From: Escherichia coli
Lineage (GTDB): Bacteria; Pseudomonadota; Gammaproteobacteria; Enterobacterales; Enterobacteriaceae
Reading direction: 5' to 3' (one strand)
Length of the DNA: 64,000 nucleotides
Assembly (NCBI RefSeq): GCF_044324785.1
Contig: NZ_CP172127.1
Position 1 is the stretch's first letter, and each line of letters opens with the position of its first letter. Made by a program: the position numbers. This document shows positions 48,801-51,800 of this stretch, one piece after another.

Positions 48801-51800
48801 ATGTGGCGGATACTGGTTGAGCAGATAACGTCCGTATGCCCGGTGACCACTTCCGGACGGGAGATTGTGATGTCTGACATTATCGGTTTCCCTTTTGGTT
48901 TATAAACGAAAACGCCAGCCCTGTTCAGGCTGGCGTCAGTGGAATGAAGTATGGTGAGTGAGGCTCACGCGCTCAGGTGAATGAGTTGCAGGTGACGCAG
49001 GGTGCGGACATCCTCCCTGGCCTGTTCGATACAGGGCAACAATGCTGCCGAATCCGTTTTATCCTCATCGTTGTCGAAAATAATTCCGGACCCGCAGTCG
49101 ATATTGTCCTGCAGCCACGCAATGAGGATATCCAGCGCTGTTTCAGTGGTTAATGGCATCACGCTCTGTATCACTGTATTGTCTTCCGGCAACTGATGAG
49201 AGCTGGCAGAAGTCGCCGGTGTTTCGGTAGCGTCACGTTCATCCACCACGCGGAGTGAATAACCGTTTTCAGCGACCTTGTTAATCAGTTCAGTGAGCTC
49301 AACACCATCAATGTCAACGACAATTCGCCCTATATTCAGTGCCTGTACGTTAACGCTGTCTGCTTCCAATGTCAGGGCCAGTTTCATCATTTCGCCTCCG
49401 GATACTTACCCAGGGTAATGTTATTTACCGTTCTGTAATTGTCGCGGGTCATCAGGCCGGTCGCCCTGCGAGCCCGGAGGATATCGATGCTGTTTATTAA
49501 CTGAGAGCGGGTACAGGCGCTGAATCCCGGCTGGTTGGTACGCACCAGCGCGTATTTTTCCACGAGAAAGTTCACCGCATCACACAGTGAAATGCCTGCC
49601 TCAATATGCAGCTCAATCACGCGTTCATCCGCGAACGGTGTGTCATTCAGCGTAAGGCTGTAATGCTGGTCCAGTAACCGGGTGAGCAGTGTCTGCCAGA
49701 TGGTGACGGGAGACGGGCAGCACGATGCCTCCCGTACATGCGTGTCGGGTAATGTTTTCATAATGAAGATTTTCCTGATATGCAGAGATAAAAAATGGGA
49801 CAGTGGCGTGGTGAAAACACCAGGCCGGAGCAGAAGATTATTCTGATGATTTACTTTTTCGTTTCGGGCGTCGGATAAACAGCCAGATAAACGTAACCAC
49901 AGGAGCCGAGGGTGTCGGCTTCACAGGTCAGCCCCTTCGCATACAGTGTCACGGTATGCTGATGGCGGGGATTCAGTTCACCGCTGGTGAGCATGAGCTC
50001 CAGTTGTTTCATCGGCAGCGGAAAGGCCTGGTCCGGATGGTACGCATCCGCATCTCTGAACCGGCCTCTGATACCGGCACGGTCGGCAAGGTAATGCAAC
50101 CGGTTACCCTCCTGCACCAGACGTGCCCCGAAACAGGGCGTCACGGTGCAGGGCAGTCCCCACCAGAGGCGGTCGTGATTGTCGTCGTGATGCGTTGTCC
50201 CGGGGAGTGTGTCTGACACGATAAAATCCTCACAGAAAATCGTTGAATGATAGTTTAACTTTGACAGGTCAGCCGGTGCGCAGACCGGCTTCGGTGAAGG
50301 TGTATTCGTTGATGAGAAGGGCCTCATCCACAGGGGCATCTGAGGTCAGCCTGTTGTGCTCGTTTTCCAGTTGACGGTACAGCCATAAGGCCAGGTCGCG
50401 CAGGGCTTCGCTGACAGCGGCTTCCGCATCTGTTGTCATAGTCTGACCAGTCGGACTGTTCCGGGTAACAGTGATATCCATGCTGTACGGATGGCAGTAG
50501 CGTCCCCGGCGGTGGATTTCAGCCTGCAGTTGCCAGAAGTTACGCTTCTGCACCGCCTGCAGGGCATCCGCGATACGATGGAGTTCATGCTCCTGTGGGG
50601 CATACTTCCGGATTATCCGGGCTGTCGCCGGCTGCCAGTGCCAGCGTCCTTCAAAACAGGCTCCGTCCCCCTGGCTGCAGCATCCGCTGAACCAGATGCA
50701 CGGCTCTTCCATAAACCTGCCGTTGCTGAGCCGGAAAACGCGCTGGCGGAGGTCAATTCCGAAAATGTCACAGACCGCCCTGAAGTCCTCATACACGTTT
50801 TCATACCAGTTGCTGTCAGCATGATGCTGACGGTACCCGTCGCGGGCTTTTCCCCGTACCGGGCAGGAAAGTTCATCCAGCGTATACACTGTGATGGTGA
50901 TAATGCTGCTCATCAGAATCCCCTTTCTGATTCAGTTCAGGGTGACGCTCATCAGCCGGACATACGGGCCAAAACTGTCCTTACGGCGTTCAGCAAACAC
51001 GGCCAGCACACCGGGAATATCCTGTACTTCACGACCGGTATACGTCTCAGCACTGCCGTGCCAGCGGTACTTACCGGTGCAGAACGGAAATAGACGGGAT
51101 GCAGGATGCTGTTGGTGAATACGCATGGCTTCACCACGGGTGATAATTTTCATAATGGGATACCTCTGAAGACAGAAGATAAAAGTGAAAACAGGTGTGA
51201 TGTGGTTGTGACGGGTTAAAGCAGACCATGTTCGGCAAAGGAGAAAACCTGGCTGCCACCGACTATCAGATGGTCCGGCACCCGGATATCCACCAGGCCC
51301 AGTGCCTGTACCAGACGTTCCGTGATAAGGCGGTCTGCCTTGCTGGGTGTGACTTCACCGGACGGGTGATTGTGCGCCAGCACCACGGCAGCGGCATTGT
51401 GGTACAGGGCGCGTTTAATCACTTCCCGGGGATGGACTTCCGTGCGGTTGATGGTGCCGGTGAAGAGGGTTTCACCGGCAATCAGCTGATTCTGGTTGTT
51501 CAGATACAGCACCCGGAATTCTTCACGCTCCAGTCCCGCCATGTTCAGAATCAGCCATTCCCGTGCCGCATGCGTGGAGGTGAAGGCCACGCCGGGTTCA
51601 TGAAGATGGCGGTCCAGGGCTTTCAGGGCCCGCTGAATGAGGCTGCGCTCTCTGGTTGTCATTTCTCCGGGCAGAAAGGAAATCTGTTGCATTGTTCCGG
51701 CCCCCTTTCAGTCAATGATGCGCATAATGGCGCTGCATTCCGGATGCTGCAGGGCGTAATCCCGCAGACGGTAATAATGAACCGTCATGGCATAACACTC

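What the first reader, a model, noticed from the sequence alone, without database searches (positions are those of the whole stretch)
50269..50913. Unassigned 214-aa gene wedged inside the conserved CbtA/CbeA module
CP4-type modules normally run antirestriction, RadC-like, DUF987, CbeA, CbtA without interruption (from memory of CP4-44, CP4-57, CP4-6). Here an extra co-oriented gene sits between the DUF987 gene and cbeA. It has a Cys-rich segment and no family I recognise. Its placement next to the antitoxin suggests a functional link to the TA pair or to anti-defence.
Basis: partly seen in the sequence, partly recalled or inferred. Interest (0 to 1): 0.5.

Follow-up and report, generated by a model that had tools for sequence, protein, structure and literature searches.

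The report
Common unknown-function mobile-element backbone gene

Summary
Observation confirmed. A 214-aa ORF (50269-50913, minus strand) with a good Shine-Dalgarno site lies between the DUF987 gene and cbeA. It has no Pfam-A, NCBIfam, PADLOC or PDB sequence match.

Interpretation mostly overturned. The gene ("X") is in 2045 of 5426 complete E. coli genomes and in about 23% of DUF987-containing modules. The exact protein is on at least 1000 public contigs. The newest PGAP annotation calls an ortholog "DUF8835"; the older name is "antitoxin of toxin-antitoxin stability system".

The K-12 CP4-44 yeeT-cbeA spacer still holds X's ribosome-binding site, ATG and about 8 codons. K-12 therefore lost the gene; this island did not gain it.

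The family has 2753 clusters at 50% identity. It occurs in 542 species genomes (the best 80 hits nearly all Alphaproteobacteria), on at least 443 viral contigs, and in early regions of lytic phages. In alphaproteobacterial plasmids and ICEs, X sits in a conserved backbone (DUF932-RadC-...-X). Five unrelated TA families occupy the slot right after it, so the TA pair is the variable cassette.

The AlphaFold model (pLDDT 96) has no solved structural relative. The conserved SQGDGA loop and two conserved histidines suggest a binding or catalytic pocket.

Best guess is an early establishment or anti-defence factor, untested. The legacy antitoxin label is unsupported. Ordinary as a finding, open as to function.

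The parts
50269..50913 (-). X: 214-aa CDS of the DUF8835 / PHROG 5162 family (identical to the RefSeq protein WP_045146861.1 annotated in L001)
   Evidence: ORF. 100% identical copies annotated 'hypothetical protein' in complete E. coli genomes. Full-length match to phrog_5162, E=6e-31. Family of 2753 clusters. dN/dS 0.15-0.29 between genera.
50919..50926 (-). Shine-Dalgarno-like AAAGGGGA, 5 nt upstream of the ATG of X
   Evidence: Read directly from the sequence. The same element survives in the K-12 deletion scar.
50647..50691 (-). Codons 75-89, the family's core motif F-S-G-F-x-S-Q-G-D-G-A-C-F-E-G (FSGCCSQGDGACFEG in this allele, i.e. F78C)
   Evidence: Q81, G82, D83, G84 and A85 are 93-98% conserved in 116 diverse members and are kept in lytic-phage homologs.
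50491..50493 (-). Codon for His141 (94% conserved). With His112, Asp83 and Glu14 it is a candidate pocket or metal-site residue.
   Evidence: Conservation tables. Proximity in 3D was not verified.
50932..51153 (-). DUF987 (YeeT-like) gene immediately upstream of X
   Evidence: 12,912 places in 4802 E. coli genomes.
49851..50219 (-). cbeA (YeeU-family type IV antitoxin), 49 bp downstream of X; first gene of the variable TA cassette
   Evidence: (PF06154).
49387..49761 (-). cbtA toxin gene
   Evidence: PF06755.
51216..53103 (-). Upstream backbone genes of the same transcription unit: DUF932 (52285-53103), ArdB/KlcA-type antirestriction (51708-52193), RadC/JAB (51216-51692)
   Evidence: RadC TIGR00608, 150 bits. 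Gaps of 91, 15 and 62 bp.
53152..53181 (-). Strong terminator-like hairpin (12 bp stem plus T-run) upstream of the DUF932 gene; marks the 5' boundary of the unit that contains X
48911..48937 (-). Strong terminator-like hairpin after the YeeW/DUF5983 gene; 3' boundary of the putative DUF932...X...CbeA-CbtA-YeeW unit
   Evidence: No comparable hairpin lies between the two on the minus strand.

Best explanation
X is an ordinary member of a large, catalogued but uncharacterized family (DUF8835 / PHROG 5162). Members are soluble, mostly acidic, single-domain alpha/beta proteins of about 210 aa.

X is a backbone gene of the 'establishment' gene block of mobile elements: DUF932, antirestriction, RadC, (DUF987), X. 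That block is shared by enterobacterial CP4-type islands, alphaproteobacterial conjugative plasmids and ICEs, and the early regions of lytic phages. In the window it is most likely co-transcribed with its neighbours as one unit.

The CbeA/CbtA pair downstream is an exchangeable TA cassette occupying the slot after X. It is not X's partner.

Inferred mechanism, not shown: soon after the element's DNA enters a cell, X uses a conserved pocket to bind or modify a host factor or a small nucleotide-like ligand. The pocket would be formed by the Gly-rich S-Q-G-D-G-A loop, His112, His141, Glu14, Tyr139, Arg172 and Trp177/Tyr179. This would help the incoming DNA get past a host barrier, i.e. an anti-defence or establishment function.

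Shown: gene reality, family membership, distribution, ancestral position, and independence from any one TA family. Inferred: co-transcription, the pocket, and the anti-defence role.
For: Family and reality.

Ancestral backbone position: the K-12 deletion scar and the same gene order in Roseobacter/Paracoccus-type plasmids, DUF932-RadC-RadC-DUF6878-...-X.

ICE version: in 56 of 80 species loci X is followed 119 bp later by a ~1460-aa methylase/strawberry-notch-type helicase, and a ParB-like protein lies upstream. In one locus X lies about 2 kb from nikA-relaxase-T4CP.

Anti-restriction genes nearby. ArdA-type phrog_2059 is near X in 6 of 80 viral loci.

Lytic phages carry X among small early genes and in terminal repeats, with the full motif conserved.

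Leading regions of plasmids are known to be enriched in anti-defence genes, methyltransferases, SSBs, TA genes and many uncharacterized families (PMC11541004).

The family is acidic, median pI 4.8 and net charge -15.

More than 12 conserved polar residues, including 2 His, 1 Asp and a Gly-rich loop, fit a pocket rather than a pure mimic surface.

Tight gene spacing and bracketing terminator-like hairpins support one transcription unit.
Against: There is no experimental or literature evidence for any function.

Neighbours in phages are heterogeneous, and known anti-defence genes are near X in only a minority of loci.

I could not check whether the conserved residues cluster in 3D.

The window's own allele is only mildly acidic (pI 5.9, net -5). 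It also carries F78C and A19V at sites that are 89-91% conserved, so this particular copy may be impaired.

Within-E. coli dN/dS is higher, 0.47 on few substitutions.
Confidence: 0.45

Rival explanations
1. X is a TA-associated accessory protein, i.e. a third component, regulator or stabiliser. It would work with the antitoxin gene that follows it, as the legacy name 'antitoxin of toxin-antitoxin stability system' and the first reader's idea suggest.
For: In several independent lineages X is immediately followed, about 50-65 bp later, by a TA pair, antitoxin first in four of the five families. These are CbeA/CbtA in Escherichia and Salmonella, ParS/RES, DUF6088-AbiEi/AbiEii (weak), TacA plus a 205-aa protein, and a convergent HTH_3/Gp49 pair in Nitrobacter. 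In-frame X-CbeA fusion alleles exist in many E. coli.
Against: The five toxin families are mechanistically unrelated.

In 56 of 80 species loci no TA pair follows X; the methylase-helicase does. L100 shows that the TA pair sits between X and that helicase gene, which fits an insertion slot at an operon boundary.

Lytic phages carry X with the full motif and no adjacent TA pair.

The fusion comes from a stop-codon mutation plus a 34-bp deletion, and PGAP annotates it as a pseudogene. CbeA is likewise found fused to DUF987, CbtA and DUF5983, so such fusions are common decay products.

The N-terminus shows no RelB/Phd/YefM signal in Pfam or in a PDB profile search.

The K-12 CP4-44 cbeA-cbtA genes persist without X.
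Confidence: 0.12
2. X serves the element's own DNA transactions, such as replication priming, recombination, ssDNA-to-dsDNA conversion or partition, rather than countering host defence.
For: In ICEs it lies between ParB-like, Toprim-like and methylase/helicase genes, and near relaxase genes. In viral contigs DNA polymerase and ATPase genes recur nearby. SSB and RadC genes are in the same block.
Against: No nucleic-acid-binding or nuclease fold or motif was detected. The family is acidic, which is unusual for DNA binders. E. coli islands that keep X are non-replicative remnants, yet X is still under purifying selection between genera.
Confidence: 0.2
3. In this window X is a decaying passenger. 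The family is functional elsewhere, but this allele in a cryptic island is inactive or neutral.
For: The allele carries F78C in the core motif, A19V, and a one-codon deletion near residue 18. Within-E. coli dN/dS is 0.47. Frameshifted, truncated and fused variants are common. The widespread CP4-44 lineage deleted X altogether.
Against: The ORF is intact and keeps its SD site. The identical allele is present in at least 46 complete genomes and on at least 1000 contigs. All the other near-invariant residues are retained.
Confidence: 0.15

Closest known systems
DUF8835 / PHROG 5162 (legacy NCBI and UniProt name 'antitoxin of toxin-antitoxin stability system')
   Same: Full-length profile match (phrog_5162, E=6e-31). 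An orthologous E. coli allele carries the DUF8835 label in current PGAP annotation. The legacy name is on the exact protein. The AFDB50 structural neighbours are all this family, TM 0.9-0.98.
   Different: Nothing differs in kind; this is the family it belongs to. The family has no known function. The window allele has F78C and A19V at conserved sites.
Anti-restriction proteins of plasmid leading regions and phage early regions (ArdA, ArdB/KlcA, ArdC)
   Same: Same genomic niche. X is in one unit with an ArdB/KlcA-type gene in the window. It lies near antirestriction, methylase and SSB genes in plasmids and ICEs, and near ArdA in some phages. It is small, soluble and mostly acidic, and is shared between phages and conjugative elements.
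   Different: There is no sequence or fold similarity to any of them. Its conservation pattern (Gly-rich loop, two His, Asp) looks like a pocket rather than a DNA-mimic surface. No activity has been tested.
RelB/Phd/YefM-type antitoxin N-terminal domain (my guess, from memory, at the source of the legacy name)
   Same: A superficially similar beta-alpha-alpha-beta-beta order at the N-terminus of the model, and frequent placement next to TA genes.
   Different: No hit in Pfam at E<=10 or in a PDB profile search using the N-terminal 64 residues. X is 2-3 times longer. The gene after X is itself an antitoxin, not a toxin.
CbeA/YeeU type IV antitoxin (PF06154)
   Same: Adjacent and co-oriented, and occasionally fused in frame by deletion.
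   Different: Unrelated sequence: no PF06154 hit on X. X occurs mostly where no CbeA exists. The AlphaFold2 model of the fusion gave no information on an interface.
Aha1 N-terminal domain (Hsp90 co-chaperone)

Membership tests
DUF8835 / PHROG 5162 | Full-length profile match to the family model | tested here: met
   phrog_5162, E=6.4e-31, residues 3-212 against profile positions 3-197 of 201. phmmer finds 2753 clusters at 50% identity, nearly all about 210 aa. The DUF8835 label is on an orthologous allele. The DUF8835 HMM itself is not in the Pfam copy available here.
DUF8835 / PHROG 5162 | Core motif FSGFxSQGDGA(C/S)FEG plus His112, His141, Trp177 and Tyr179 | tested here: met
   All are present except F78, which is C in this allele.
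Type II antitoxin, RelB/Phd/YefM-like (legacy label) | Recognisable antitoxin DNA-binding or dimerisation domain | tested here: not met
   No Pfam hit at E<=10 for the whole protein, for 116 members, or for 30 N-terminal segments. A PDB profile search with the N-terminal 64 residues finds no antitoxin.
Type II antitoxin, RelB/Phd/YefM-like (legacy label) | Cognate toxin gene immediately adjacent in a two-gene operon | tested here: not met
   The next gene is another antitoxin (cbeA, ParS, TacA, AbiEi-like) or a methylase-helicase. Phage copies have no TA neighbour.
Type II antitoxin, RelB/Phd/YefM-like (legacy label) | Neutralises a toxin | not testable with these tools
   Needs co-expression assays.
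CbeA/YeeU/YfjZ type IV antitoxin (PF06154) | PF06154 domain | tested here: not met
   No Pfam hit on X. PF06154 appears only in the fused 343-aa alleles, on the CbeA half.
Known anti-restriction families (ArdA PF07275, ArdB/KlcA PF03230, ArdC) | Sequence or fold match to the family | tested here: not met
   No Pfam, PHROG or PDB match to these families.
Known anti-restriction families (ArdA PF07275, ArdB/KlcA PF03230, ArdC) | Location in the leading or early-entry region of a mobile element, co-oriented with other establishment genes | tested here: met
   The oriT position and T-strand orientation were not determined.
Known anti-restriction families (ArdA PF07275, ArdB/KlcA PF03230, ArdC) | Inhibits restriction or another defence in vivo | not testable with these tools
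Anti-phage defence systems (PADLOC-DB) | Match to any defence-system protein model | tested here: not met
   0 families at E<=1.

The most novel reading that the evidence does not exclude
DUF8835 is a new-fold effector, either an enzyme or a ligand or protein binder, built around the SQGDGA loop and two conserved histidines. Lytic phages, conjugative plasmids, ICEs and genomic islands all deploy it early after DNA entry to disable a widespread host barrier. This would make it a new anti-defence or establishment family present in about 38% of E. coli genomes. In addition, the 3' end of its gene marks a conserved docking slot where unrelated TA cassettes are repeatedly captured.
Probability: 0.3. 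Interest if true: 0.65.

Novelty: already known. Interest (0 to 1): 0.3.

Why it matters
As a scan finding it is ordinary. The exact protein is in RefSeq, the family has a DUF number, and its presence here reflects normal variation among CP4-type modules.

Three points are still useful:
- The mental reference (K-12) is misleading. K-12's CP4-44 carries a deletion scar of this gene, so 'canonical' module layouts should not be taken from K-12.
- The legacy annotation 'antitoxin of toxin-antitoxin stability system' is unsupported and should not be propagated.
- The family is a good candidate for functional screens. It is very widespread (38% of complete E. coli genomes, 542 species genomes, at least 443 viral contigs). 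It is shared by phages and conjugative elements, models confidently with no solved structural relative, and has a sharply conserved putative pocket.

If it proves to be an anti-defence factor, it would matter for plasmid and ICE spread and for phage host range.

Tried and rejected
1. Pfam-A on X, on 116 family members, on the N-terminal 64 residues and on the 374-aa member P0140: no family.

2. NCBIfam and PADLOC on X: nothing.

3. PDB by sequence and by profile: nothing meaningful. The one E=5e-5 hit is a designed repeat protein matched by five sub-threshold 14-residue stretches.

5. Literature searches on the legacy name, DUF8835, protein accessions and yeeS/T/U plus anti-defence found no functional study.

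6. AlphaFold2 on the natural X-CbeA fusion, as a test of an interface. The first MAFFT alignment merged the two families (A3) and was discarded. A block alignment padded with X residues (A4) folded the X half, but the CbeA half came out at pLDDT 25-50 with pTM 0.57. The test is uninformative either way.

7. Gene-fusion ('Rosetta stone') argument for an X-CbeA link: rejected. The fusion arises from a stop-codon mutation plus a 34-bp deletion, PGAP annotates it as a pseudogene, and CbeA is also found fused to DUF987, CbtA and DUF5983.

9. Homology between the alphaproteobacterial upstream partner ('c5') and DUF987: none.

10. Scars of X in K-12 CP4-57 and CP4-6: none visible.

11. Rfam and tRNA scans around the locus: nothing.

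12. The first dN/dS run was out of register for one allele because of a one-codon indel. It was redone on a codon alignment.
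Full report
**1. The observation**

The window has an ATG-initiated ORF of 214 codons at 50269..50913 on the minus strand. An AAAGGGGA Shine-Dalgarno-like element lies 5 nt upstream of the ATG.

Minus-strand gene order:
- GTPase, 53289-54173
- DUF932, 52285-53103
- ArdB/KlcA-type antirestriction, 51708-52193
- RadC/JAB, 51216-51692
- DUF987, 50932-51153
- X, 50269-50913
- cbeA, 49851-50219
- cbtA, 49387-49761
- YeeW/DUF5983, 48965-49390
- DUF4942, 48038-48880

These identities come from annotated loci with the same arrangement. In L001 the X and DUF987 genes are 100% identical to the window's. L010 carries Pfam labels. RadC and the GTPase were also confirmed directly.

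Gaps inside the block are 91, 15, 62, 18, 49 and 89 bp, then a 4-bp overlap. Strong terminator-like hairpins on the minus strand lie only at 53181-53152 and 48937-48911, which brackets DUF932 through YeeW. Co-transcription of X with its neighbours is therefore likely, but it is inferred.

**2. It is a real gene of a large family**

X has no hit in Pfam-A even at E<=10, none in NCBIfam, none in PADLOC and none among PDB sequences. It matches PHROG 5162 ('unknown function') over its full length at E=6e-31.

Homologs are abundant:
- phmmer against 1.84 billion representatives finds 2753 clusters at 50% identity (1598 at E<=1e-10). Nearly all are about 200-225 aa and standalone.
- The word-indexed search finds 2288 clusters at 90% identity.
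- The exact protein is on at least 1000 contigs.

Names attached by public sources are 'hypothetical protein' and 'antitoxin of toxin-antitoxin stability system'. The newest PGAP annotation of an orthologous allele uses 'DUF8835 domain-containing protein'.

dN/dS is 0.29 and 0.23 (window against two Salmonella orthologs) and 0.15 (Salmonella against Salmonella). Within E. coli it is 0.47, on few substitutions.

**3. Sequence and structure**

An alignment of 116 diverse full-length members (A1) shows these features:
- an N-terminal motif, Y-x-x-x-E-L-S-x-x-A-K-E-x-A-R;
- a sharply conserved core, F-S-G-F-x-S-Q-G-D-G-A-(C/S)-F-E-G, in which Q81, G82, D83, G84 and A85 are 93-98% conserved;
- L111-H112, Y139, H141, R172, W177, Y179, N202, F206 and G210.

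Only C86 reaches 58%, with Ser at 35%. The family is acidic (median pI 4.8, net charge -15), while the window allele has pI 5.9 and net charge -5. The window allele also has F78C and A19V at sites that are 89-91% conserved, plus a one-codon deletion near residue 18.

AlphaFold2 with A1 gives a very confident alpha/beta model, pLDDT 96.2 and pTM 0.89.
- Foldseek against the PDB finds nothing at E<=0.001.
- AFDB50 returns only members of the same family.

The fold therefore has no solved relative, and it gave no mechanistic lead.

**4. Distribution in E. coli and the K-12 scar**

Megablast finds X at 2953 places in 2045 of 5426 complete E. coli genomes. The adjacent DUF987 gene is at 12,912 places in 4802 genomes. 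So at least about 23% of such modules carry X; this is a lower bound, because divergent alleles escape megablast.

K-12 lacks X in all three modules. Aligning the 73-bp yeeT-cbeA spacer of CP4-44 to the window shows what is left (A5):
- it retains X's SD, ATG and about 8 codons (GGGAATTCTGATGAGCAGAATTATCGCCACTAC = M-S-R-I-I-A-T-T);
- the rest of the gene is deleted;
- the last ~35 nt of the X-cbeA spacer follow.

The K-12 arrangement is thus a deletion derivative. This scar junction occurs in 3113 of 5426 genomes. CP4-57 and CP4-6 show no visible scar.

**5. Distribution outside Enterobacteria**

A scan of one genome per species finds relatives in 542 stretches. The best 80 are almost all Alphaproteobacteria and are 55-59% identical to the E. 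coli protein.

I clustered the ORFs around X in those 80 loci. Conserved neighbours:
- in 56 loci, a ~1460-aa protein 119 bp downstream on the same strand. Homologous records annotate it as a bifunctional SAM methyltransferase/DEAD-box or strawberry-notch-like helicase;
- in 56 loci, a ~712-aa ParB-like protein about 2 kb upstream;
- in 66 loci, an unannotated 138-145-aa ORF overlapping X's start;
- nearby, ArdC-like (recognised from memory), DUF2958 and Toprim-like genes.

One locus places X about 2 kb from nikA-relaxase-T4CP.

On Rhodobacterales plasmids the order is SSB ... DUF932-RadC-RadC-DUF6878-(DUF6915)-hyp-hyp-X. This mirrors the enterobacterial DUF932-antirestriction-RadC-DUF987-X.

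The PLSDB search gave 108 plasmid records, mostly alphaproteobacterial.

The phage record search gave 45 phage genomes. They include Caulobacter jumbo phages, where the gene lies in the terminal repeats, Acinetobacter Saclayvirus, Pseudomonas Lanavirus, and E. coli phages such as Av-05. There X sits among small early hypothetical genes.

IMG/VR holds at least 443 viral contigs with a relative. Neighbours there are heterogeneous. An ArdA-type anti-restriction gene (phrog_2059) recurs in 6 of 80 loci, and a phrog_1297 ATPase paired with a phrog_1314 protein recurs in about 10 of 80.

Phage homologs keep the full conserved core.

**6. Relation to TA systems**

The slot immediately 3' of X holds different TA families in different lineages:
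- CbeA/CbtA in Escherichia and Salmonella;
- MbcA/ParS plus RES;
- DUF6088/AbiEi-like plus AbiEii (a weak AbiEi hit);
- TacA (PF08681) plus a 205-aa protein (with the same ORF pair in L074 and L090);
- a convergent HTH_3 plus Gp49 pair in Nitrobacter.

In L100 the TA pair lies between X and the methylase-helicase gene. In L107 other cargo fills the same gap.

Most ICE loci and all phage loci examined have no TA pair next to X. The simplest reading is that X ends a conserved operon and TA cassettes are repeatedly captured at that operon boundary. This fits the reported enrichment of TA genes, methyltransferases, SSBs, anti-defence genes and many uncharacterized families in plasmid leading regions (PMC11541004).

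The 343-aa X-CbeA 'fusion proteins' arise from a TGA-to-TTA change plus a 34-bp deletion. PGAP annotates them as a pseudogene followed by a separate YeeU gene. CbeA is also found fused to DUF987, CbtA and DUF5983, so these fusions are decay products rather than evidence of partnership.

An AlphaFold2 model of the natural fusion was uninformative, with the CbeA half at pLDDT 25-50 and pTM 0.57.

The legacy 'antitoxin' name found no support. Neither Pfam nor a PDB profile search with the N-terminal 64 residues finds RelB, Phd or YefM.

**7. What it most likely is and does**

Shown: X is a bona fide, selected member of DUF8835/PHROG 5162. It is an ancestral backbone gene of the establishment-type gene block of mobile elements, it is independent of any particular TA family, and it is shared with lytic phages.

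Inferred, with about 0.45 confidence for the whole statement: X is expressed with the upstream block early after DNA entry. It uses a conserved pocket (the SQGDGA loop, H112, H141, E14, Y139, R172, W177/Y179) to bind or modify a host factor or a small ligand, which helps the element establish itself, most plausibly by countering a host defence.

Rivals:
- a TA-associated accessory protein (0.12);
- a helper for the element's own DNA transactions (0.2);
- for this specific allele, functional decay (0.15).

**8. Comparison with what is known, novelty and score**

The gene belongs to an already catalogued family, and the exact protein is in RefSeq. Its presence here is normal variation among CP4-type modules.

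It fails the membership tests for RelB/Phd-type antitoxins, for CbeA, and for ArdA, ArdB and ArdC. It shares only the genomic niche with the anti-restriction families.

No functional study was found.

I rate the finding as already known as an entity, with function open, and give it an interest of 0.3. The upside case is a new-fold anti-defence or establishment effector shared by phages and conjugative elements. I put that at a probability of about 0.3, with an interest of about 0.65 if true.

Noticed in passing
L102 (E. coli K-12 NC_000913.3 2077039-2077111) compared with window 50190-50930: The 73-bp yeeT-cbeA spacer of K-12 CP4-44 is a deletion scar of X. It keeps X's SD, ATG and about 8 codons, followed by the distal part of the X-cbeA spacer. 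The scar junction is present in 3113 of 5426 complete E. coli genomes.
   Followed up: yes
L010 6001-7032; L013 1942-2973; corresponds to window 50219-50275: A recurrent E. coli allele fuses X in frame to CbeA (343 aa) through a TGA-to-TTA change plus a 34-bp deletion. PGAP annotates it as a pseudogene followed by a separate YeeU gene. CbeA is also found fused to DUF987, CbtA and DUF5983 in other records.
   Followed up: yes
L002, L098-L101, L095, L074, L090, L105; window 49387-50219: The position immediately 3' of X is occupied by five unrelated TA families in different lineages: CbeA/CbtA, ParS/RES, AbiEi-like/AbiEii, TacA plus a 205-aa protein, and HTH_3/Gp49. In ICEs a methylase-helicase gene follows X directly. 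This looks like a conserved capture slot for TA cassettes.
   Followed up: partly
L019 7396-7833; L105 4592-5008; L107 1238-1654 (and 66 of the 80 loci L015-L094): An unannotated 138-145-aa ORF family overlaps the start of X, an arrangement typical of translational coupling, in most alphaproteobacterial loci. It has no Pfam or NCBIfam hit and no similarity to DUF987. It may be X's real conserved partner.
   Followed up: partly
window 49851-50339 (minus strand): The ORF containing cbeA extends 40 codons upstream of the annotated GTG start and overlaps the 3' end of X in another frame. This explains why small deletions readily create X-CbeA fusions.
   Followed up: partly
window 50680-50682 (codon 78) and 50857-50859 (codon 19): The window allele of X has F78C inside the most conserved motif and A19V, both rare in the family (2 of 116 and 4 of 116 members). 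It also has a one-codon deletion near residue 18 relative to the common E. coli allele. This copy may have reduced function.
   Followed up: partly
AFDB entry A0A4P9WST2: A 969-aa protein attributed to the fungus Blyttiomyces helicus ('DUF4326 domain-containing') contains a domain 56% identical to X, with TM 0.94 to the query model. It is most likely bacterial contamination or a chimeric gene model.
   Followed up: no
window 48965-49390 (minus strand): The YeeW/DUF5983 gene is intact here (141 aa), whereas PGAP annotates it as truncated in L001, L013 and L014. It overlaps the cbtA stop by 4 bp.
   Followed up: no
L009 4191-13826 (metagenome contig, X at 8001-8651): In one divergent chromosomal island, X lies between an 872-aa N6 DNA methyltransferase and a PDDEXK_1 nuclease plus UvrD helicase pair, next to an integrase. 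This is another methylase, nuclease and helicase context for the family.
   Followed up: no
window 54276-55229 (+) and 55226-56101 (-): Two long ORFs upstream of the GTPase gene correspond to the 'hypothetical protein' genes in the matching region of L001 (L001 6047-7782). They were not examined.
   Followed up: no
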